Of a stretch of 64,000 nucleotides of DNA, positions 19,896 to 32,347 are shown one piece after another. Source of the DNA: a phage; assembly GCA_022979955.1 (NCBI GenBank), contig GCA_022979955.1_3642.1; one strand, given 5' to 3'. Positions within the stretch are counted from its first letter, which is position 1. Every line of letters starts with the position of its first letter. The translations under genes and the position numbers were made by a program. The notes under the pieces are model-generated. The model worked only from the letters and a program-made list of their open reading frames with translations. It made no database searches and was not told the origin of the DNA.

Positions 19896-20559
19896 CTGGA
19901 GCAAGTATTTCACCTATAGCGACGGCAAACTGTTCTGGGCGTATACCGCAAAAGCCGGAAGGGGTAGGATCATACATTACGCAGGTGAGGAGGCCACAGG
20001 CACAGATAAAGATGGCTATAGAGTAATAAATGTGTCAGGTGTTGGAAGTGTTCGTAGGCACAGAATAATTTGGGAGATGCATTACGGAGAGATACCTGAA
20101 GGTCTTGTTGTTCGGCACAAGAACGACATAGCAGGGGACGACAGGATAGAGAACCTAATCCTGGGGACACAAGGTGATAATGCACGAGACATGATCTACA
20201 GTGACAAGCTAAACATTAACAATACCTCAGGGTATCGTGGCGTGCGCTATCATAGAGGTATAAAAAGATGGACTGCATCTGCTGGAGACATATACTTAGG
20301 GTGTTTTAAGACAAAAGAGGATGCAATTGCATGCAGAAAGTTATGGGAGAAAGGAAAATTCGTCCCGCAAGAATTAGATGTTAGAAACACTAGCGGTGTA
20401 ACAGGGGTGTTCTATGTGCCGAGCTCTGGAAGGTGGAGAGTCCGAGTGCAAAGCGGCAAAAAGAGAAAGAGCTATGGCACTTACAACACTTTAGAAGAAG
20501 CAAAAGCTGTAAGGGATAAAGTGATGAAAGAGATTGAGGAGTTTAAAGATGGGGAATAA
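19888..20559 (+). CDS. HNH homing endonuclease with AP2 DNA-binding domains
   Basis: HNH region RRHRIIWEMHYG...VRHKNDIAGDDRIENL; two AP2-like repeats (SGYRGVRYH...GCFKTKEDA and SGVTGVFYV...YNTLEEA). Confidence 0.75.
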   Translation: MVDWSKYFTYSDGKLFWAYTAKAGRGRIIHYAGEEATGTDKDGYRVINVSGVGSVRRHRIIWEMHYGEIPEGLVVRHKNDIAGDDRIENLILGTQGDNARDMIYSDKLNINNTSGYRGVRYHRGIKRWTASAGDIYLGCFKTKEDAIACRKLWEKGKFVPQELDVRNTSGVTGVFYVPSSGRWRVRVQSGKKRKSYGTYNTLEEAKAVRDKVMKEIEEFKDGE

Positions 20560-22627
20560 GTTTATACCCTCTGCATATAGCCGCTATGGAGAACCTAACC
20601 CAGTTGCAACAAGATACAAAAGCGGAGGTAGTATGAAACGAGACTATCGCGATGAAAAAGAGGTTGAAACTGTAGAGACCGTTTTAGAAAATACTAAAAT
20701 TGTCCCTGTCCCACAACAAAATATCGGTCTGATGGCTGCACAATATTTTGGTGTGCGATCAGCATTGTCCCAAGAGGACGGTGTGACAGTAACTGCAACA
20801 TATTTCCCATATTACGACCGCTACGGAAATCTATCTGGCTTTAAAAAGCGTGATTGGTCTAAGCCAAAAGAGCAGAAAGGGCACTGGTCTGTAGTGGGCA
20901 TAGTAAAGGCTAACTCCCAGATGTTTGGTCAAAAGCTGTGTGCATCTTCCAACAACCGTAAGCAGATTAATGTTTGTGAGGGAGAAGGTGATGTTATTGC
21001 AGCATGGCAGGCTGCATATCAAATACAAGTAAAAGGGATTCTCACCAACGCTAAAGCCCCGGCAAAGGTGAAACAGTGGGCTAAAGAGGTCCAGGACGGG
21101 ATCGATGCAGTTATCAACGGGGGTGATTTGGCAGGAAAACCCTGCCTGCCTTTTGTTGGAATTAACTGTGGATGTGCAAACGCAGTAGATACTTTTGCAA
21201 ACAATGAGAAATTTATCCGTAGCTACGGAACAGTGGTCCTTGCAATGGACAACGATGCGGCTAACGAGGTAGAGAAGCAAAAACACGTTATAAAAGGTGT
21301 TGAAGCCACACATAATATTGCAGCATTTTTGATGGCTGACAACGTTTACCACGTGGAATATCCTGGCGAGGTAAACGACCCTGATGGTGTAAAAGATATC
21401 CGTGACATGCTGAAGGCTAAAAAGCTGGAAGATATTGTAAACATGTTCCGGCATCCTGTTAAGTATGTGCCTGATGCTGTGTCGGATTTAGAAGACTTCT
21501 CTATCGAATCTTTGCGGAAAAAGACTTCCAACGGGGTAGATATCAGCGCAGAGTTTCCAAAACTGCAAAAAATGCTAAAAGGCTTGCACAAAGGGACACT
21601 CGTAATGCTTACAGGTCCATCAGGAGGTGGTAAAACAACTGTAGCCAAAAAACTGGAACACTGTATTGCAAGATACCTAATGGACCCGACATGTCCAAAG
21701 GCCGATGACTACGAAGAGGATGATCGTCTATGCATGATTCATCTTGAGGAGGACCCAGAGGAAGCAATTAACTCCTTGTATGCAAACCAGTTAGGGTTTG
21801 ATGTTAAAGAGTTTGTTGAAGATCCTAGCCAGTTTTTAACTGATCAAGAACATGCAGAGATTCACCAATCATGGGCAAAAGCTGGAAAAATCAAAGTGTT
21901 CAAACATTTCGGGTCTATTCCAGTGGACGAGTTGATTACCAAGCTTAAGCAAATGGTCTGCCTGTACCATTGTCGCTATATTGTGCTGGATCACCTGTCT
22001 ATGGTAATTTCAGGGCTTAATGTTAAAGATGAGCGAAAAGAACTGGACATGGCTATGACTCAGCTGGCTGCGTTTTGTAAGCAGTTTAACGTGTTTATCT
22101 TGGTGATCGCTCACCTCAAACGTACAGAGATTGTGCCTCCTAAGGACAAGGATGGTAACCCATTACCTTTCTGGTATCCTGTGCGAAAAGAGAATTTGCG
22201 AGGATCGGCTGGGCTTGAACAGTTGAGTTGGGTAGTCATAGGTGTCGAGGCCGAAGAAATGGTGGATCGTTCTCGTGGACGTGTCCGTCTGGTAGGTCTT
22301 AAAAACCGTCCAGCAAAAACTCTAGGTATTGCTGACACTTTGGTTATGGACCCGCACACAGGTAAGTTCCATGATGCCAGTAATTGGTACTGGGACAAAG
22401 AAATGCAAATGTTTACAGACGGAGAAGGTGGGGAGGTTGTTTGGAGACCTCAGGCTATGTTTGAGGATCAGGAGCATGCAGTTGTAGAAACACCTATGGG
22501 CAAGGTTGTGGCTGATAAGGTTGTAACTCCTACTGTTAAGCCTGTTGACACGCAGGAAGACCTCCAGTACGATGATCCATCCTCTGACCCGGTCCCTGGT
22601 TTTGAGGATGATGAAACGCCTTTTTAA
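20549..22627 (+). CDS. DNA primase-helicase (TOPRIM + DnaB-like)
   Basis: ATG 7 nt after GAGGAG; TOPRIM motifs CEGEGD and MDNDAA in N-terminal half; helicase Walker A GPSGGGKT and Walker B-like VLDHLS in C-terminal half. Confidence 0.8.
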   Translation: MGNKFIPSAYSRYGEPNPVATRYKSGGSMKRDYRDEKEVETVETVLENTKIVPVPQQNIGLMAAQYFGVRSALSQEDGVTVTATYFPYYDRYGNLSGFKKRDWSKPKEQKGHWSVVGIVKANSQMFGQKLCASSNNRKQINVCEGEGDVIAAWQAAYQIQVKGILTNAKAPAKVKQWAKEVQDGIDAVINGGDLAGKPCLPFVGINCGCANAVDTFANNEKFIRSYGTVVLAMDNDAANEVEKQKHVIKGVEATHNIAAFLMADNVYHVEYPGEVNDPDGVKDIRDMLKAKKLEDIVNMFRHPVKYVPDAVSDLEDFSIESLRKKTSNGVDISAEFPKLQKMLKGLHKGTLVMLTGPSGGGKTTVAKKLEHCIARYLMDPTCPKADDYEEDDRLCMIHLEEDPEEAINSLYANQLGFDVKEFVEDPSQFLTDQEHAEIHQSWAKAGKIKVFKHFGSIPVDELITKLKQMVCLYHCRYIVLDHLSMVISGLNVKDERKELDMAMTQLAAFCKQFNVFILVIAHLKRTEIVPPKDKDGNPLPFWYPVRKENLRGSAGLEQLSWVVIGVEAEEMVDRSRGRVRLVGLKNRPAKTLGIADTLVMDPHTGKFHDASNWYWDKEMQMFTDGEGGEVVWRPQAMFEDQEHAVVETPMGKVVADKVVTPTVKPVDTQEDLQYDDPSSDPVPGFEDDETPF

Positions 22628-22685: not shown

Positions 22686-25049
22686 ATGAGTATGTGGTCT
22701 TTCGATTTTGAGTCATCCGGTTTGCTGGAAGACCCAGATCTTTATTATCACTGCGGTCTGTTTAAAGAGCTGAATAAGAACCGTTTTATGCTGTTCCTTC
22801 CTCTAAATGACCGCACACACTACTCCGAGGAGGATATAGAAAAGGCTAAGAACTTCATTCTGGCAAAGAAAACTCTTTATAAAGATTTTGAAGTTCGCAT
22901 AGCAGATTTTTCGGAGTTGGAAGGTTGGCTTACAGGCAATTCTGACTGGTCACCAACAGCTTTGAACTGCCATAACTGCTACAGTTATGACTTTATGCTG
23001 ATGGAAAGATTATCCGGTATTCATTTTGACATGTTCCGTGATCCTAAATGCATGGGGACTATCAACGACCACCAGGTTAACCTGTTTGATACGTTGGCGA
23101 TGAGTCGAATCTTGTGGCCTGATCGCCCTTTACCAAAAGGTTGTCCGGACTCTGTATTCAACCCGGTCACTAAGAAAATGCAGCCTGTTGGTCCTCACGG
23201 CCTTATGGCATGGGGCTATGCTCTTGGTAACCAGAAAGTTCAAATTGATGACTGGCGCGATCTTCCGTTATGGAAGTATGTGGATCGTGTATTTGAGGAC
23301 GTTATCATCCAGGAGCTGCTCTGGAAAGAACTGGTAGCGGAATCAAAAGGTGTATTCTACGGCAAGTCTGACATGCAGAACTTTATGTACGATCCTGCCA
23401 AAGAGAAGCCGAAAGGGTTCAAGAAGATCACCTGGAAGAACGCACTACGCCGAGGCATGCTGCAGCACTTCCTGATGGAGCTGCAGGCCCGTCAGGGTGT
23501 GTATTTTGACATAGATGGAGCTATTGCTTTACGTGACCGTTGTGATGCGTGGATGAAAGAAATAGCTGATCGTGTTGAACCACAACTACCTTTAAAAGAG
23601 CTGTCAATGTCTCAGCGGCCCAAGTTCCCTGAAAAGCCGTTTAACCAAGATGGGACAATCTCCAATAATGGTTGGAAATGGTTAAAAGATAAGCTTGGCT
23701 ATCCTGTAGACATGAGCGCTTTAGAGTTCAAAGCCCCGCCTAAGCGAGCATTTACCTCCACAGGAGATGTCAGTAAGATGGGGATAAAATGGTGTGAAGA
23801 GATGGGCTGCAAAGACCCTGATAAGATGGCTGATTTCTTGAGAGGCTATATTAAGGGCACTTCCACACCACAACCTTTACCTAAAGAGCTGATGGATCAG
23901 GCAATAAGTGATCTACAGCAGAAGCGAATGCCGGACTGCAAGATACCTATGAAAATCAGCAATCAGGACGACATTAAGCGATACCTGATCAGTGCTGGTT
24001 GGCTTCCGACAATGTGGAGAACTAAGGATGTAACTAAAGACAGCAAGAAGAAAGCTCTACCTGATGCAGATGTTGATGCACGAGTATATGCATATATGGA
24101 CGAGCTTTTAGAGTCAGAGTATTGTGACCTGATTATCAACTTCTGGAACAAAACTGATGCTAAGTTCCAGACAACCGTGCACAAGTTCCGAAGCTTTCCT
24201 AACTCCGAAAGGATTAAAAAGGAAGTATTCGGGAAAATACGTAGAAAAGCTAGGGCACTTATTACTTCTCCGCAACTGAAAGATACGTTTGGACACCTAT
24301 GCCCTAATCTTGAAAAATTGAACGGAGAGATGGCTAAAGATATCGTCTTGTGGTTATCATTGCGAAACCGCAGATCGGTCCTTGATCCAATCAAGGAGGA
24401 TAAGGTTGATACTGGTCTTCTTAATCACCCACGTTTGAAGATTGACCATAAGCTTCCTGCTAAAAGTTCTGGATTAACAAACACTTCCCGACAGAAACAC
24501 AGTATTTGTGCAAACATGCCTAAACCATCTCCTAAAGTGGTTATGGGTAAAGAGATGCGTAGTCTGTGGGGTGTTCCTCCAGGATACTTTGAGATCGGTA
24601 TTGACGGGTCCAACTTAGAGCAGCTTATCGGGGCTTGGGGTGCCTTTGAGTTCGACAACGGCCTGTATTACGATGTTGTAAGTAACGGAGACGCACACCA
24701 AAACAATGCTGAGGCATATACAAAAGTAGCAGGCAGAGAGGTGTCCCGTAACGACGGTAAACCTATCACGTATGGGGTTATGTACGGAGCACAAAAAGAT
24801 AAAGTTGCAGATATGCTGGACATCTCTCCAGAGTTGGGACAAAGGGTAATCGATGCGCTTTGGGATGCCAACCCTGGTCTTAAGGGCCGTAAAGAGGATC
24901 TGGAGAAATTCTGGGAAGCAACGGGTAAGAAGTTTATCTACTCTTTTGATGGTCATGCCATCTGGACCAGATCTAAACACTCTTTACTTAATGCATACCA
25001 ACAGAATGGTGGTGCATCGCTGTGTGACTTGGTTGGGATACTCATGCAC
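22686..25049 (+). CDS. DNA polymerase family A (T7/Pol I-like), exon 1
   Basis: N-terminal 3'-5' exo motif SFDFESSGL...HCG; motif A-like IDGSNLEQL; motif B RNDGKPITYGVMYGA; reading frame continues to a stop at 25115 inside the putative intron. Confidence 0.7.
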
Positions 25050-25385
25050 CACCAAATGGTGAAGCGTGGGTGGTACGATGAAGGTGTTCGCCGTATTATT
25101 TATTACCATAAATAACATTGTGGCTTCATAGAGTAATCTATGTCGAATAACCTCTTTAACTGCGGGAAGCCTAAACCTTATGGCAAGGTAATCCGCAACG
25201 AAGCGCTCAAAAGAGCGAACGCTCAGAGGCCATTCCGAAAGGAAGTAGACCAGCAAGTGCGGTCGAAATGGGAGGATTCCTGTGGTTGCTTATCATAGGA
25301 ATATGAGATGGTCCGATCCTACGTGAAAACGTATGGCTATGCACGTAATGGTGCGGGGTAGCTTAACGACCTACCTGAACTATTG
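25050..25385 (+). ncRNA. putative group I self-splicing intron, ORF-less
   Basis: 336-nt insert between in-frame polymerase segments; P-like AACUGCGGGAAG (25159-25170), Q-like AAUCCGCAAC (25190-25199), R-like GUAGACCA (25245-25252), S-like GAGAUGGUCC (25305-25314), GNRA-capped hairpin UUCC-GAAA-GGAA; ends in G at 25385; exact junctions uncertain. Confidence 0.5.
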
Positions 25386-25739
25386 GATGAGTACCAACTT
25401 CAAGTGCCTGACACGCCTAAGTATAAGACTGTGTACACCTTCGACACAATTGAAGAACTGGAAGCATTTAAGGCAGAACAGGAGGCCAAACTTCATGTGT
25501 TCGACGGTCATAAGTACAAAAAGGCACGCAAAGATGAGGACGGAAACGAAGTAGTTGACAGGGACGGAAACACGGTGTACGATCCTATCCTGAACGATGA
25601 CGGAAAGCTTGAGCTTATCTGGAGCCCTGTGGGTGAAATGGTGGTGCATTGCTTCTGGCAAGCTTCTAAAATGATGGGAGTCCCGTTCCAGATCACAGGT
25701 GAATACCTGTGTGGTCGTAATTGGGGTGATTGTCACTAA
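25386..25739 (+). CDS. DNA polymerase family A, exon 2 (C-terminal segment)
   Basis: Begins DEYQLQV, which joined to ...GILMH gives motif C LMHDEYQ; ends GRNWGDCH like the T7 DNA polymerase C-terminus as recalled; no SD upstream. Confidence 0.55.
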   Translation, partial: DEYQLQVPDTPKYKTVYTFDTIEELEAFKAEQEAKLHVFDGHKYKKARKDEDGNEVVDRDGNTVYDPILNDDGKLELIWSPVGEMVVHCFWQASKMMGVPFQITGEYLCGRNWGDCH

Positions 25740-28563: not shown

Positions 28564-28929
28564 ATGGAACAAATGAACGATCAAACGTCGGTTGCAATGA
28601 ACGAGCAAGAACAACCTCAAGAATTTTTCTTAGGGTTAAGTAAAGATCAAGTGTCTCTTTTGCTAGTGCTTTCTTCTTTCATGGGAAGACTTCAGGAGCT
28701 CACACAACAACCGGAGGCTGAACAATTATTTCAGGCTCTGCGCGAAGAAGAAAAATATCGTCGTTTGGACTATGCCTTAGGTTGGGTAGCTCAACAACGA
28801 GATATGCTGATGGCTCTCTCTGGGACCACAAGTTTTGCAATGGGCCTGTTGGCTCAAGTTCAGGACAAATTAATTCAGGCAGGGTTTGCACACACGGCAA
28901 ACACTAACGAAGAACAAGGAGACAAATAA
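28564..28929 (+). CDS. hypothetical protein
   Basis: 121-aa ORF with GGAG SD; possible promoter TTGTAA-17-TAAAAT upstream. Confidence 0.45.
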   Translation: MEQMNDQTSVAMNEQEQPQEFFLGLSKDQVSLLLVLSSFMGRLQELTQQPEAEQLFQALREEEKYRRLDYALGWVAQQRDMLMALSGTTSFAMGLLAQVQDKLIQAGFAHTANTNEEQGDK

Positions 28930-30155
28930 TGAGCGTTATTCAACAATTCGCTAACCCGATGAATCCGCGTGAAACTGTTTTACTGGCTCACGGCATGATT
29001 AAACGTGTCAGCATCAAGCCTATCAAAGGTGCTGATCCTACAACAGGTATTAAAACCACTGTGTGGCAAGGTAAGAAAATTGAATCCAGCCACACCATCT
29101 CTTTACTGATTTCTGAACTGGATTCCTCTGATAACCTGCTTCAAGGTGGTGAAGAAGTTTGGATCAGTATGGGTGATAAGCTGCTTAAACCTGGTCATCA
29201 AGACTCTGTCTCTGTTAAAATTGATGACAAGTGGGAAACCGTAACGCCGGGATGGATCGTAAATATCCCTTTGAAGGCAAACGAGCATAACGGTAAGACC
29301 TATTACAAAGGCTCACTAGCTAAGATGGTCAAGCTGGGTGCAGGAGAGGCTCCAGCAGCGACCCAGCAGCAAAAACAGCAACAAGGTGCACAATCACAAG
29401 GCCAGAAGCAGAAACCTCAGCAGAATGCCAATCAGGACGTTTTACGCATCTATGGTGATGTGACTCAGATTGTTGGCAACGTGGTTACTGTCAATGACCA
29501 CAAGATTGGCGAAGGTGCTATGGTTGTCACCGATGAGCAGCTTAAAGATCTGGTGGTAGGTGGTCGTGTTGCAGCCATTGTTGACAAAGACACCGGAAAC
29601 ATTATCAGTGGTTTCAAAGCCTATCCCCCTAAGGCAGAGAACGGCACTCAAGGCTCCGGTGGCAAGCGTAAATCCTCTTACGACCCTATCGGTGTGGAAA
29701 CGGGGCATAGCATCAATGCGTTGCAGATTATCCTGGATCGCGGGTTTAAGGTAGACGACCCCCTAGGCGTGGCTAAAACACTGCACGTAGTCACCATCGA
29801 GCTTAAGAAAGAGTATGCTCAAGCCACCAACCGAACTGAAGATGAAGTAGGTGCCAGTGTCGGTAATGCGGTGTTGAACGCTTGTCGCCGTATTGACAAG
29901 AAAACGAAAGTTGATGATTTTGCAGCGGCAATTACTGCAGAAGCAAAAGATGTCTTGACTAATCTGGCTGAGCCGTTGTACGATTGGATCAAGAACGGTG
30001 CTGGGTCAACTGACCATCAAGAACCTCAGGCTGCCAAACAGGAAGCAGCTCCACAGCAAAACACTGTAGACGCTCCTCCTGTAAATGATGGGGAAGATGA
30101 CCCAATGGATCAGAATCCAGCACAGTACTCCTTTGATGATGACATCCCTTTTTAA
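28929..30155 (+). CDS. putative ssDNA-binding protein with SSB-type C-terminal acidic tip
   Basis: C-terminus ...YSFDDDIPF matches the bacterial SSB tail DDDIPF; Gln-rich linker; sits in replication module. Confidence 0.5.
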   Translation: MSVIQQFANPMNPRETVLLAHGMIKRVSIKPIKGADPTTGIKTTVWQGKKIESSHTISLLISELDSSDNLLQGGEEVWISMGDKLLKPGHQDSVSVKIDDKWETVTPGWIVNIPLKANEHNGKTYYKGSLAKMVKLGAGEAPAATQQQKQQQGAQSQGQKQKPQQNANQDVLRIYGDVTQIVGNVVTVNDHKIGEGAMVVTDEQLKDLVVGGRVAAIVDKDTGNIISGFKAYPPKAENGTQGSGGKRKSSYDPIGVETGHSINALQIILDRGFKVDDPLGVAKTLHVVTIELKKEYAQATNRTEDEVGASVGNAVLNACRRIDKKTKVDDFAAAITAEAKDVLTNLAEPLYDWIKNGAGSTDHQEPQAAKQEAAPQQNTVDAPPVNDGEDDPMDQNPAQYSFDDDIPF

Positions 30156-30996: not shown

Positions 30997-31422
30997 ATGA
31001 TCTATGAAATGCCAAAACTGATTCGTGACGATGCCCAAAACGCCCACACCTTTATCATGGGCAAGCGCATGGATATTATTTGTCATAAAGATTTCTGGGA
31101 AGGGAGTTACTTCACGGAATATTTTGGTAAACTGGATAATGGTCTGCTGATCCAGTTCTACACCGATGCGGAAAACAATATCTGCTGGGAGTTCGAAACT
31201 GAAGATATCCATAAACTTTTCACCTTCCTAGGTATTAAGGTTGAGGCCAAGTTCGAAGAAGGTGAGTGCGACGATTGTGGATTCTACGAGGTAACAGATT
31301 TCTATCTCCCAAGTGGTGAGAACCTTTACTATGAAAGCCACTTCGGCAACTCAAATATGCCACAAGGTTGGGATGAGTTTTTTGAAATTGTGGAAGAGGA
31401 GCTGGCATACCGTGATTATTGA
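30997..31422 (+). CDS. hypothetical protein
   Basis: 141-aa acidic ORF. Confidence 0.45.
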   Translation: MIYEMPKLIRDDAQNAHTFIMGKRMDIICHKDFWEGSYFTEYFGKLDNGLLIQFYTDAENNICWEFETEDIHKLFTFLGIKVEAKFEEGECDDCGFYEVTDFYLPSGENLYYESHFGNSNMPQGWDEFFEIVEEELAYRDY

Positions 31423-31870
31423 TACTGTAGAGGGAGATTTAATCTCCCTTTTTAAGAGCGGCGCTGGTCACCTGATCCACGGTTGTAACTGCTTCCACAC
31501 AATGGGCAAGGGGATAGCAAAACAGATTGCCCGTGAGTTCCCTCAAGCATTGGCAGCTGACAAAGAGACCAGACATGGTTGCCTAAGTAAACTGGGTGCG
31601 TTCTCCCGATGGGAGCACTTATCTCCGAGAGGTATTGTCTACGGAATCAATCTGTATACTCAGTTCTACCCAGGACCTAATGCTGAATATTTCTCAATCC
31701 TGAAAGGCTTTGAGCTAGTCAATGAGGTATTCAGTGGATCGACTTTACCATTCTACATCCCTAAGATCGGGTGCGGCATAGGCGGTTTGAAGTGGGAGCA
31801 CGTAGAGGACGTTATTAACCTTGCCACTTTTGATATGGATATTATCGTGGTGGAGTACAAAAAGTGTTGA
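31412..31870 (+). CDS. macro-domain protein (ADP-ribose binding/hydrolase-like)
   Basis: HGCNCFHTMGKGIAKQI and IGCGIGGL resemble the two glycine-rich macro-domain motifs; GTG start after GAGGAG (alternative ATG at 31373). Confidence 0.5.
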   Translation: MIIDTVEGDLISLFKSGAGHLIHGCNCFHTMGKGIAKQIAREFPQALAADKETRHGCLSKLGAFSRWEHLSPRGIVYGINLYTQFYPGPNAEYFSILKGFELVNEVFSGSTLPFYIPKIGCGIGGLKWEHVEDVINLATFDMDIIVVEYKKC

Positions 31871-31895
31871 CAGCTGGTTTTTGAGACGGTATAGT
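31867..31895 (+). promoter_or_regulatory. sigma70-like promoter
   Basis: TTGACA-17-TATAGT. Confidence 0.55.
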
Positions 31896-31923
31896 CACCA
31901 CAACGATTGAGAGAGGGAGCACT

Positions 31924-32094
31924 ATGGAGACTAAAATCTTAATTCTGGCTGTGATAGATACAACCGAAGGGGCTGTGTTCGAATCTGCAGGAGGGTATTT
32001 CTACCTACCTTACGGAAAAAGAACTGCTGAACCAGGTAAAGATTCAATCATCAAAGTGTTCCCGTGTGCTTTCTGGCTGGAGATTTTGGTATAA
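31924..32094 (+). CDS. small hypothetical protein (56 aa)
   Basis: ATG after GAGGGAG, downstream of promoter; below the 60-aa ORF-track cut-off. Confidence 0.4.
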   Translation: METKILILAVIDTTEGAVFESAGGYFYLPYGKRTAEPGKDSIIKVFPCAFWLEILV

Positions 32095-32319: not shown

Positions 32320-32347
32320 TTGACATCTGAAAACTGCAGTGTATAGT
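32320..32347 (+). promoter_or_regulatory. sigma70-like promoter
   Basis: TTGACA-16-TATAGT with TG immediately upstream of -10. Confidence 0.5.

What the first reader, a model, noticed from the sequence alone, without database searches (positions are those of the whole stretch)
31412..31870. Macro-domain protein within the replication module
Two glycine-rich motifs (HGCNCFHTMGKGIAKQI and IGCGIGGL) fit a macro domain. Macro domains bind or hydrolyse ADP-ribose adducts, so a phage copy next to SSB and polymerase genes could reverse ADP-ribosylation-based host defences. This role is inferred, not demonstrated.
Basis: inference. Interest (0 to 1): 0.5.

Follow-up and report, generated by a model that had tools for sequence, protein, structure and literature searches.

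The report
Phage macrodomain, likely anti-DarT enzyme

Summary
The ORF at 31412-31870 (+) is real. It encodes 152 aa from a conserved GTG start, dN/dS is 0.09-0.17, and both quoted motifs are present. It matches Pfam Macro above the gathering score. The AlphaFold model (pLDDT 96.7) is closest to TARG1, Poa1p, DarG and SCO6735, the ALC1/TARG1-like macrodomain class.

The window is a Vequintavirus (rV5/FFH2-like). Public records already call this gene "macro domain protein" or "phosphatase". It is 39% identical over its full length to T4 Tk.4, in the same PHROG. A 2025 preprint named Tk.4 AdfM because deleting it sensitises T4 to DarTG2.

The family lacks the catalytic Lys of DarG and TARG1. An invariant Gln (Q84) sits there instead, as in Streptomyces SCO6735, whose Gln85 is essential and which cleaves thymidine-linked ADP-ribose on DNA.

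The most likely function is a free-standing hydrolase that removes DarT2 ADP-ribose from phage ssDNA. This is inferred, not shown for this protein. The Bas54 orthologue is dispensable in the laboratory.

"Within the replication module" is only loosely true. The polymerase gene ends 5.7 kb upstream, and the "SSB" is a plausible but unproven candidate.

This is an ordinary new member of a known kind, of low to moderate interest.

The parts
31412..31870 (+). Coding sequence of a 152-aa single-domain macrodomain protein (GTG start, TGA stop), in the T4 Tk.4/AdfM family.
   Evidence: ORF and translation. Pfam Macro hit above the gathering score. phrog_335 E=2e-59. Model pLDDT 96.7. Fold matches TARG1, Poa1p, DarG and SCO6735. 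39% identity to T4 Tk.4. dN/dS 0.09-0.17 and start-codon evidence.
31396..31401 (+). GAGGAG ribosome-binding site, 10 nt upstream of the GTG start and inside the 3' end of the upstream gene.
   Evidence: Sequence. The Murica record annotates an RBS at the equivalent position.
31478..31528 (+). Loop-1 motif HGCNCFHTMGKGIAKQI (residues 23-39). It contains H23, G24 and N26 (codon 31487-31489), equivalent to DarG N22 and SCO6735 H24/V25/N27.
   Evidence: Alignments. G24 and N26 are invariant and H23 is present in 87 of 88 homologues.
31649..31663 (+). NLYTQ motif (residues 80-84). Q84 (codon 31661-31663) occupies the position of the catalytic Lys of DarG (K80) and TARG1 (K84), and of Gln85 in SCO6735.
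   Evidence: HMMER and MAFFT alignments. Q84 and N80 are invariant in 88 of 88 homologues. All 142 further cluster representatives carry Gln. The role of SCO6735 Q85 is from PMC9411070.
31766..31789 (+). Loop-2 motif IGCGIGGL (residues 119-126), the diphosphate-binding glycine loop. G125 sits where TARG1 has the catalytic D125.
   Evidence: Alignments. G120 is invariant, G122 is present in 87 of 88 and G125 in 86 of 88 homologues.
31432..31453 (+). Hairpin GGGAGAT-TTA-ATCTCCC followed by TTTTT, inside codons 7-14 of the gene. It may be an attenuator or other regulatory structure; its function is unknown.
   Evidence: Annotated as a terminator in phage Murica. Equivalent covarying hairpins occur in RB49 and T4. 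It is more stable than 97.8-100% of synonymous recodings in Vequintavirus, RB49, T4 and Z31, but is absent in four other lineages.
30997..31422 (+). Upstream 141-aa acidic ORF (phrog_8157, function unknown). Its stop codon overlaps the macro gene start by 11 nt, so the two are probably co-transcribed and translationally coupled. This is context, not a demonstrated partner.
   Evidence: ORF list and PHROG match. pI 4.2. The same arrangement occurs in all Vequintavirus records examined. It lies outside the divergence island.

Best explanation
The gene encodes a free-standing macrodomain of the ALC1/TARG1-like class. It is the Vequintavirus member of the phage Tk.4/AdfM family. It is probably expressed early, from sigma-70-like promoters upstream and together with the preceding small ORF (inferred). 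The protein binds the ADP-ribose moiety in the cleft formed by the two glycine loops. It then hydrolyses the N-glycosidic bond between ADP-ribose and thymine on single-stranded phage DNA modified by the host toxin DarT2. This restores replication and transcription and neutralises DarTG2 defence.

Catalysis is not by the Lys of DarG/TARG1, which is absent. It most likely follows the SCO6735-type route. There the invariant Gln (Q84 here) positions the distal ribose, and a backbone-held water (G24 carbonyl; H23 and N26 nearby) initiates cleavage.

Shown here: the gene is real and under purifying selection, it has the macro fold, it belongs to this class and family, and its active-site residues are as described. 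Shown elsewhere for relatives: the T4 tk.4 deletion is DarTG2-sensitive, and SCO6735 cleaves dT-ADP-ribose with an essential Gln85. Inferred: that this protein has the same substrate, chemistry and anti-defence role.
For: Macro profile, fold and class. The closest solved sequences are DarG macrodomains, Poa1p, SCO6735 and TARG1. DarG models in NCBIfam and PADLOC match the macro part at E=1.5e-12 and 7.6e-14.

Family with T4 Tk.4: 39% identity over 150 of 152 residues, E=2e-40, tblastn E=2e-30, both best in phrog_335. T4 tk.4/adfM was the single DarTG2-specific hit in the screen, and a clean knockout is DarTG2-sensitive (preprint 10.1101/2025.11.20.689424).

Q84, N26, G24 and N80 are invariant in 88 homologues, and Gln is present in all 142 further representatives. 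T4 Tk.4 has the same NLYTQ motif.

SCO6735 has Gln85 at that position. Q85A and Q85E are inactive. The enzyme removes DarT-made dT-ADP-ribose in vitro and in cells (PMC9411070). It is inactive on 5'-phosphate-linked and 2'-OH-linked ADP-ribose (PMC11833690).

The Bas54 orthologue (82% identity) took insertions at 31 of 31 TA sites and is non-essential on a host without the defence, as expected of an accessory counter-defence gene. The gene is a local divergence island in an otherwise 93-99% identical backbone, yet remains under purifying selection, which fits exchange of arms-race alleles. Homologues occur in 2,783 of 50,697 phage records, and the three metagenomic contigs carrying two distant homologues that were inspected looked phage-like and carried replication, nucleotide-metabolism or RNA-repair genes.
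Against: No experiment has been done on this protein or on any Vequintavirus. For T4 AdfM only genetics and structural similarity are reported, in a preprint, and no enzymology.

The catalytic Lys of DarG/TARG1 is missing. The biochemically proven phage AdfM (PhiKZ gp104, which keeps the Lys as K78) is only 21% identical.

The SCO6735 features linked to DNA handling are not conserved. Its longer mobile loop with K89/K94 is absent. The K34 equivalent (K33) is Lys in this allele, but only in 9 of 88 homologues in total. The protein's pI is 6.3.

The family is very large (1,309 50%-identity clusters at E<=1e-30; about 5% of phage genomes), so some members may serve other ADP-ribose substrates.
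Confidence: 0.6

Rival explanations
1. The protein is an eraser of ADP-ribose on proteins or RNA rather than DNA. It would reverse other host ADP-ribosyltransferase toxins or defence effectors, or modulate ADP-ribosylation during takeover, as TARG1 and SCO6735 can do on glutamate-linked protein ADP-ribose.
For: The fold is closest to TARG1 (TM 0.78-0.85). SCO6735, which has the same Gln, also hydrolyses protein ADP-ribose by a different mechanism. The family is far more widespread than any single defence system is known to be.
Against: The TARG1 K84/D125 dyad used for protein substrates is absent; this protein has Q84 and G125. None of the 20 larger ORFs of the window scanned against Pfam matched an ADP-ribosyltransferase family. 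T-even phages carry Tk.4 yet are strongly restricted by the mRNA ADP-ribosyltransferase system CmdTAC (abstract of PMC11618068), so that modification is evidently not reversed. SCO6735 is inactive on phosphate-linked and 2'-OH-linked nucleic-acid ADP-ribose.
Confidence: 0.15
2. The protein is a small-molecule enzyme of the Poa1p type, which is the origin of the 'phosphatase' annotation. It would be an ADP-ribose-1''-phosphate phosphatase or an O-acyl-ADP-ribose deacylase, clearing NAD-derived metabolites or feeding ADP-ribose into nucleotide or NAD salvage.
For: Yeast Poa1p is among the best sequence and structure matches. H23 and the loop motifs are shared (IHSCNC versus IHGCNC; INSGIFG versus IGCGIGG). 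Some distant homologues sit next to ribose-phosphate pyrophosphokinase genes (Vibrio phages Ceto and Pylo) or next to RNA-ligase/kinase genes.
Against: T4 Tk.4, a much closer relative than Poa1p, has a specific DarTG2 phenotype. From my own recollection of the Poa1p sequence, not from any alignment made here, Poa1p seems to have Ser rather than the family-invariant Gln at this position. No ADP-ribose-1''-phosphate-generating pathway gene was found among the 20 larger ORFs scanned in this window; small ORFs were not scanned.
Confidence: 0.12
3. The protein is a binder or degrader of ADP-ribose-containing immune signals (His-ADPR or gcADPR of Thoeris), or a stoichiometric inhibitor of DarT by binding, without needing hydrolysis of DNA adducts.
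For: Macrodomains are the natural receptors of His-ADPR in type II Thoeris. Catalytically dead SCO6735, DarG and TARG1 still inhibit DarT by interaction.
Against: The invariant Q84, N26, H23 and G24 fit a conserved catalytic centre. No phage macrodomain sponge was found in the papers read here. The protein lacks the DarT-binding C-terminal domain of DarG, being 152 aa and matching only positions 3-141 of the 338-position model.
Confidence: 0.08

Closest known systems
Phage T4 Tk.4 = AdfM (anti-DarT factor Macrodomain), preprint 10.1101/2025.11.20.689424
   Same: It is a single-domain protein of about 150 aa. It is 39% identical over the full length and falls in the same PHROG (335). It has the same NLYTQ, HGCNC and G-x-G-I-G motifs. 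It is non-essential in the laboratory. A similar 5' intragenic hairpin is present.
   Different: It comes from a different phage family (Straboviridae versus Vequintavirinae) and has different neighbours (vs and tk versus small ORFs downstream of replication genes). The anti-DarTG2 phenotype is shown for T4 only.
Streptomyces coelicolor SCO6735 (PDB 5E3B), TARG1-like macrodomain that cleaves thymidine-linked ADP-ribose on DNA
   Same: It belongs to the ALC1/TARG1-like fold class. Gln replaces the catalytic Lys (Q85 there, Q84 here). The His-x-x-Asn of loop 1 and the GCG glycine loop are shared.
   Different: Identity is only about 23-27%. The five-residue-longer mobile loop with K89/K94 is absent here. 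SCO6735 is a chromosomal, DNA-damage-induced bacterial gene rather than a phage gene.
DarG2 antitoxin macrodomain (T. aquaticus 5M31/5M3E, M. tuberculosis 5M3I)
   Same: It is the best solved-structure sequence match (E=3e-7). It has the same fold, the conserved Asn (N22 there, N26 here), and Gly at the TARG1 D125 position.
   Different: The catalytic Lys80 is replaced by Gln. There is no C-terminal DarT-binding domain and no adjacent darT gene. The score against the NCBIfam DarG equivalog is 47.5 bits against a cutoff of 250.
Chimallivirus AdfM (PhiKZ gp104), PMC13309987
   Same: It is a phage-encoded free-standing macrodomain of the same class. It was shown biochemically to remove DarT2 ADP-ribose from DNA. 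The profile-profile probability of homology is 97.5%.
   Different: It is only 21% identical and keeps the DarG-type Lys (K78, motif FPTK). It is imported into the phage nucleus. It represents a separate lineage of the same solution.
Human TARG1 (C6orf130; PDB 4J5R/4J5S)
   Same: It is the top structural match (TM 0.78-0.85, rmsd 2.4-2.8 A). The C-terminal PxIGCG..L.WE.V motif is shared.
   Different: Both residues of the TARG1 K84/D125 catalytic dyad are absent here (Q84, G125).
Yeast Poa1p ADP-ribose-1''-phosphate phosphatase (PDB 6LFQ)
   Same: It is the source of the 'phosphatase' and 'Poa1p_like' annotations. The IH(S/G)CNC motif and the loop-2 motif are shared.
   Different: Only the two loop regions align by sequence, and the structure carries extra insertions (TM 0.66-0.73). 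Its substrate is a small molecule from tRNA splicing, a pathway not evident in this phage.

Membership tests
Macro domain superfamily (Pfam PF01661) | Profile match above the curated gathering score. | tested here: met
   28.3 bits against a gathering score of 22, E=1.9e-6.
Macro domain superfamily (Pfam PF01661) | Three-layer alpha/beta/alpha macro fold with two glycine-rich ADP-ribose-binding loops. | tested here: met
   The model has pLDDT 96.7. 167 PDB matches have E<=1e-3, and 39 of the top 50 are macrodomains; the other 11 are computationally designed serine-hydrolase variants. Both loops are present and nearly invariant.
ALC1/TARG1-like macrodomain class (TARG1, DarG, SCO6735, Poa1p) | Closest sequence and structure neighbours belong to this class rather than to the MacroD, PARG or viral X-domain classes. 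| tested here: met
   The top 18 Foldseek hits are TARG1, Poa1p and DarG; BT1257 and SCO6735 follow, interleaved with designed serine hydrolases from rank 19 on. MacroD-type and viral macrodomains score lower. The sequence search gives the same set.
Phage Tk.4/AdfM family (phrog_335) | Full-length homology to T4 Tk.4 with shared family-invariant residues (H23, G24, N26, N80, T83, Q84, G120, G122). | tested here: met
   39% identity with E=2e-40. phrog_335 gives E=2e-59 here and 1.3e-65 for T4. Invariant columns are listed.
Phage Tk.4/AdfM family (phrog_335) | Confers resistance to DarTG2. | not testable with these tools
   This is shown only for T4 tk.4. No Vequintavirus data were found.
DarG type II antitoxin (NCBIfam NF048014) | Equivalog score above the cutoff; macrodomain plus a C-terminal DarT-binding domain; encoded next to darT. 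| tested here: not met
   The score is 47.5 bits against a cutoff of 250, and only model positions 3-141 of 338 are matched. The protein is 152 aa. Its neighbours are small phage ORFs.
DarG/TARG1 catalytic type | Catalytic Lys (DarG K80, TARG1 K84), plus Asp125 in TARG1. | tested here: not met
   Gln84 and Gly125 occupy these columns, and Gln is invariant in the family.
SCO6735-type (lysine-independent) thymidine-ADP-ribose hydrolase | Gln at the Lys position, together with the His and Asn of loop 1. | tested here: met
   Q84, H23 and N26 align with SCO6735 Q85, H24 and N27.
SCO6735-type (lysine-independent) thymidine-ADP-ribose hydrolase | Extended mobile loop with Lys89/Lys94, and Lys34, for DNA handling. 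| tested here: not met
   The loop after Q84 is five residues shorter and lacks the lysines. K33 is present here, but Lys occurs at that column in only 9 of 88 homologues.
Poa1p-type ADP-ribose-1''-phosphate phosphatase | Phosphatase activity on ADP-ribose-1''-phosphate. | not testable with these tools
   Only the loop motifs are shared. The structural paper on Poa1p was not in the library.

The most novel reading that the evidence does not exclude
The Gln-type Tk.4/AdfM macrodomains may form a distinct, very large phage lineage that uses lysine-independent chemistry. The sharply diverged alleles swapped into otherwise near-identical Vequintavirus backbones may reflect adaptation to different DarT variants or to a wider set of ADP-ribose adducts, such as other base-linked DNA/RNA modifications or ADP-ribose-derived immune signals. 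The conserved hairpin in codons 7-14 may act as a regulatory attenuator of this counter-defence gene.
Probability: 0.15. Interest if true: 0.55.

Novelty: new member of a known kind. Interest (0 to 1): 0.27.

Why it matters
If the inference holds, rV5-like phages, which are candidates for therapy and biocontrol of E. coli O157 and other strains, carry a ready-made counter to DarTG2. That would help predict host range. It would also add a third phage group, after T-even phages and chimalliviruses, that uses orphan antitoxin-like macrodomains. The one point that goes slightly beyond the literature is that the whole T4 Tk.4 family has Gln instead of the DarG catalytic Lys, as in SCO6735. That predicts lysine-independent chemistry for T4 AdfM and its relatives and gives a simple mutational test (Q84A or Q84K). 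Otherwise the finding is ordinary: the gene is already annotated as a macro domain in many public genomes.

Tried and rejected
1. A longer ORF from 31313 (185 aa), or the 179-aa form annotated in MH752840, is rejected. Murica has an in-frame stop, the codon-phase pattern of variable sites follows the upstream gene, and homologues start at the equivalent Met.

2. A TARG1-type Lys/Asp or DarG-type Lys mechanism is rejected, because the residues are absent.

3. Membership of the DarG antitoxin family is rejected: the score is far below the cutoff, there is no second domain and no darT neighbour.

4. Identity with the biochemically characterised PhiKZ AdfM lineage is rejected: 21% identity and a Lys-type active site.

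5. Confirming the neighbouring 408-aa protein as an SSB was inconclusive. There was no Pfam or PDB sequence hit. The model (pLDDT 73.9) shows two beta-rich domains, a helical domain and a disordered tail. Only non-significant OB-fold matches (RPA, SSBs, IF1; E>=0.03) were found.

6. A Pfam scan of 20 larger ORFs of the window returned no ADP-ribosyltransferase, NADAR or NAD-salvage family. Small ORFs were not scanned.

7. A phage macrodomain acting on Thoeris signals was sought in 10.64898/2026.06.04.730250. The macrodomain there is the host ThsA, so it is not relevant.

8. The Poa1p structure paper and LeRoux et al. 2022 could not be read.

9. The simple terminator scan did not flag the intragenic hairpin. 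It was found through the Murica annotation and by folding.

Full report
**Observation**

The window is part of a Vequintavirus (rV5/FFH2-like E. coli myovirus). The 1.5 kb around the finding is 96-98% identical to many such genomes.

The frame containing the finding is open from 31313 to the TGA at 31868-31870.
- RB49 and T4 homologues begin with ATG at the equivalent codon (ATGATTATTGATACTGTA versus GTGATTATTGATACTGTA).
- The GTG is conserved in nine Vequintavirus sequences.
- The upstream in-frame extension contains a stop codon in phage Murica. Its variable sites fall in the third codon position of the upstream gene (4/3/14), not of the macro frame (3/14/4).
- RefSeq FFH2, rV5_ev146 and five other records annotate the same 459-bp CDS. 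MH752840 over-extends it.
- A GAGGAG ribosome-binding site lies 10 nt upstream.

The translation contains both quoted motifs. The gene evolves as a protein. Variable sites are 34/17/82 by codon position, and dN/dS is 0.09-0.17 against alleles with dS of about 1.

**What it is**

- Pfam Macro matches above its gathering score (28.3 against 22 bits).
- PHROGs places the protein in phrog_335, labelled "phosphatase", with E=2e-59.
- DarG models in NCBIfam and PADLOC match the macro portion only. The NCBIfam score is far below the equivalog cutoff (47.5 against 250 bits).
- Against solved structures, the best sequence matches are the M. tuberculosis DarG macrodomain (E=3e-7), yeast Poa1p, S. coelicolor SCO6735, Bacteroides BT1257 and human TARG1.
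- An AlphaFold2 model built on 88 homologues is very confident (pLDDT 96.7, pTM 0.91). Its best Foldseek matches are TARG1 (TM 0.78-0.85), Poa1p, the two DarG macrodomains, BT1257 and SCO6735, ahead of MacroD-type and viral X-domain macrodomains.

So this is a single-domain macrodomain of the ALC1/TARG1-like class.

**Family and known function of relatives**

A tblastn search finds homologues in 2,783 of 50,697 phage records. These include T4 Tk.4 (38.6% identity over 99% of the protein, E=2e-30) and RB49 tk.4 (68%). A pairwise BLASTP to T4 Tk.4 gives 39% identity and E=2e-40, and both proteins fall in phrog_335.

A 2025 preprint screened a T4 transposon library on a DarTG2 host. tk.4 was the single specific hit, and a clean deletion became DarTG2-sensitive. 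The authors renamed the gene adfM (anti-DarT factor Macrodomain). Enzymatic removal of ADP-ribose was proposed but not shown.

Independently, a chimallivirus macrodomain (PhiKZ gp104, also named AdfM) was shown biochemically to remove DarT2-made ADP-ribose from DNA. That protein is only 21% identical to the one here and keeps the DarG-type lysine.

In the same preprint the Vequintavirus Bas54 was mapped. Its orthologue bas54_0092 is 82% identical, has the same 11-nt overlap with the upstream gene, took insertions at 31 of 31 TA sites, and is classed non-essential.

**Active site**

Alignment with DarG, TARG1 and SCO6735 shows:

| Reference residue | Residue here | Note |
|---|---|---|
| DarG Asn22 | N26 | conserved |
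| DarG K80 / TARG1 K84 (catalytic Lys) | Gln84 | motif NLYTQ |
| TARG1 Asp125 | Gly125 | |

Q84, N26, G24 and N80 are invariant in 88 homologues. T4 Tk.4 has the same motif. All 142 additional cluster representatives from a search of 1.84 billion proteins carry Gln at this position. That search found 1,309 50%-identity clusters at E<=1e-30.

SCO6735 has Gln85 at the same position. Q85A and Q85E abolish its activity. The enzyme efficiently reverses DarT thymidine-ADP-ribosylation in vitro and in cells, by a proposed water-mediated mechanism positioned by the peptide backbone. It is inactive on phosphate-linked and 2'-OH-linked nucleic-acid ADP-ribose.

The phage family therefore resembles SCO6735 in chemistry rather than DarG or TARG1. 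It lacks SCO6735's longer lysine-bearing mobile loop, and Lys33 is not conserved across the family.

**Context**

Upstream on the same strand lie:
- a PIF1-like helicase;
- a DNA methylase;
- a DnaB-like helicase (20534-22627);
- a family-A DNA polymerase (22686-25115, plus a second exon ORF at 25383-25739).

The macro gene starts 5.7 kb after the end of the polymerase gene, with about 15 small ORFs between. It is followed by tens of small hypothetical genes.

Strong sigma-70-like promoter matches (TTGACA-N17-TATAGT) occur around it, including one overlapping its stop codon. This is typical of early regions, although such pattern matches are not evidence of function.

- It ends in DDDIPF, the tip motif of E. 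coli SSB (my own knowledge).
- Its Bas54 orthologue is essential.
- Its model shows two beta-rich domains and a helical domain.
- It has no significant family, sequence or fold match. The best fold hits are OB-fold proteins at E>=0.03.

It is therefore only an SSB candidate. "Within the replication module" is loosely correct. The gene sits at the boundary between the replication genes and a long array of small accessory genes.

**Mechanism proposed**

The most likely function (confidence about 0.6) is a free-standing ADP-ribosylglycohydrolase that strips DarT2-installed ADP-ribose from thymines in phage ssDNA, which neutralises DarTG2. Catalysis would depend on Q84 and not on a lysine.

The rival explanations are:
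- erasure of protein- or RNA-linked ADP-ribose;
- Poa1p-like hydrolysis of small ADP-ribose derivatives, which is the origin of the "phosphatase" label;
- binding of ADP-ribose-based immune signals, or stoichiometric inhibition of DarT.

None is excluded, but each has weaker support. T-even phages carry Tk.4 yet remain sensitive to the mRNA ADP-ribosyltransferase system CmdTAC.

**Novelty**

Public records already annotate this gene as a macro domain protein, a phosphatase or an O-acetyl-ADP-ribose deacetylase. The anti-DarT role of phage macrodomains was published in 2025-2026.

The assignment of the Vequintavirus gene to the Tk.4/AdfM family, and the observation that this whole family is Gln-type like SCO6735, are incremental. 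I rate it a new member of a known kind, with interest about 0.27.

**Side observations**

- The macro gene is a local divergence island. DNA identity to Bas54 is 71-82% across the gene, against 93-99% in the flanks.
- A hairpin in codons 7-14 is more stable than synonymous recodings in several lineages.
- An ORF-less group I intron splits the DNA polymerase gene.
- Sixteen near-identical records are labelled as Campylobacter phages.

Noticed in passing
window 25100-25335 (+), within 22686-25739: A group I intron (Rfam RF00028, 64.7 bits against a gathering score of 50, E=5.7e-16) interrupts the family-A DNA polymerase gene. This leaves ORFs of 809 aa (22686-25115) and 118 aa (25383-25739). Phage Pr121LW has an uninterrupted 925-aa gene. 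FFH2 carries an HNH endonuclease ORF at this site, whereas the intron here has no ORF.
   Followed up: partly
window 31432-31453 (+): A hairpin GGGAGAT-TTA-ATCTCCC followed by TTTTT lies inside codons 7-14 of the macro gene; the Murica record annotates it as a terminator. Covarying equivalents exist in RB49 (GGGCGAT/ATCGCCC) and T4 tk.4 (GGGCGAT/GTCGCCC). It is more stable than 97.8-100% of 1,000 synonymous recodings in Vequintavirus, RB49, T4 and Felixounavirus Z31. It is not significant in Pseudomonas phage Kat or the two Vibrio phages, and is absent in Klebsiella Roth68, Klebsiella Tauntaun and IME13. It may be an attenuator.
   Followed up: partly
window 31350-31950 compared with L012 (Bas54/MaxBurger): The macro gene is a divergence island. 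DNA identity to Bas54 is 71-82% across the gene but 93-99% in the 3 kb upstream and 0.3 kb downstream. Amino-acid identity is 82%, against 99% for the neighbouring 408-aa protein. dS is about 1 with dN/dS about 0.12, so this looks like allele replacement by recombination. Two allele classes exist in Vequintavirus. RB49 (Krischvirus) is 68% identical, much closer than T4 (39%).
   Followed up: partly
window 28929-30155 (+): A 408-aa protein (phrog_4477, function unknown) ends in DDDIPF, the C-terminal tip of E. coli SSB. Its model has two beta-rich domains, a four-helix domain and Q-rich or acidic disordered linkers. The Bas54 orthologue is essential. No significant Pfam, PDB sequence or fold match was found (the best hits are OB-fold proteins at E>=0.03). 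It is a candidate divergent phage SSB that may recruit host SSB-interacting proteins.
   Followed up: partly
window 30997-31422 (+): A 141-aa acidic protein (pI 4.2; phrog_8157, function unknown) is encoded immediately upstream. Its stop codon overlaps the macro gene start by 11 nt (GTGATTATTGA). The arrangement is conserved in all Vequintavirus records examined, but no counterpart precedes tk.4 in T4 (where the upstream gene is vs).
   Followed up: no
window 31867-31895 and 32320-32347 (+): There are two 11-of-12 matches to the sigma-70 consensus (TTGACA-N17/16-TATAGT). The first overlaps the macro stop codon. They suggest a series of early promoters in front of the downstream small genes.
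   Followed up: no
public records MG065655-MG065682: Sixteen GenBank records named 'Campylobacter phage' (host C. jejuni), 128-141 kb long, match this E. coli Vequintavirus region; the seven shown are about 97% identical and one other (phage C2) is 86% identical. They are unannotated and their host labels look doubtful.
   Followed up: no
phage records H74, H76 and H80 (Vibrio phages Ceto, Pylo, VPMCC14); L014/L015: In some distant homologues (33-37% identity) the macro gene lies next to a ribose-phosphate pyrophosphokinase gene. In two metagenomic phage contigs it lies near RNA-ligase and kinase genes. This hints that some family members may be linked to ADP-ribose/NAD salvage or to RNA repair.
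   Followed up: no
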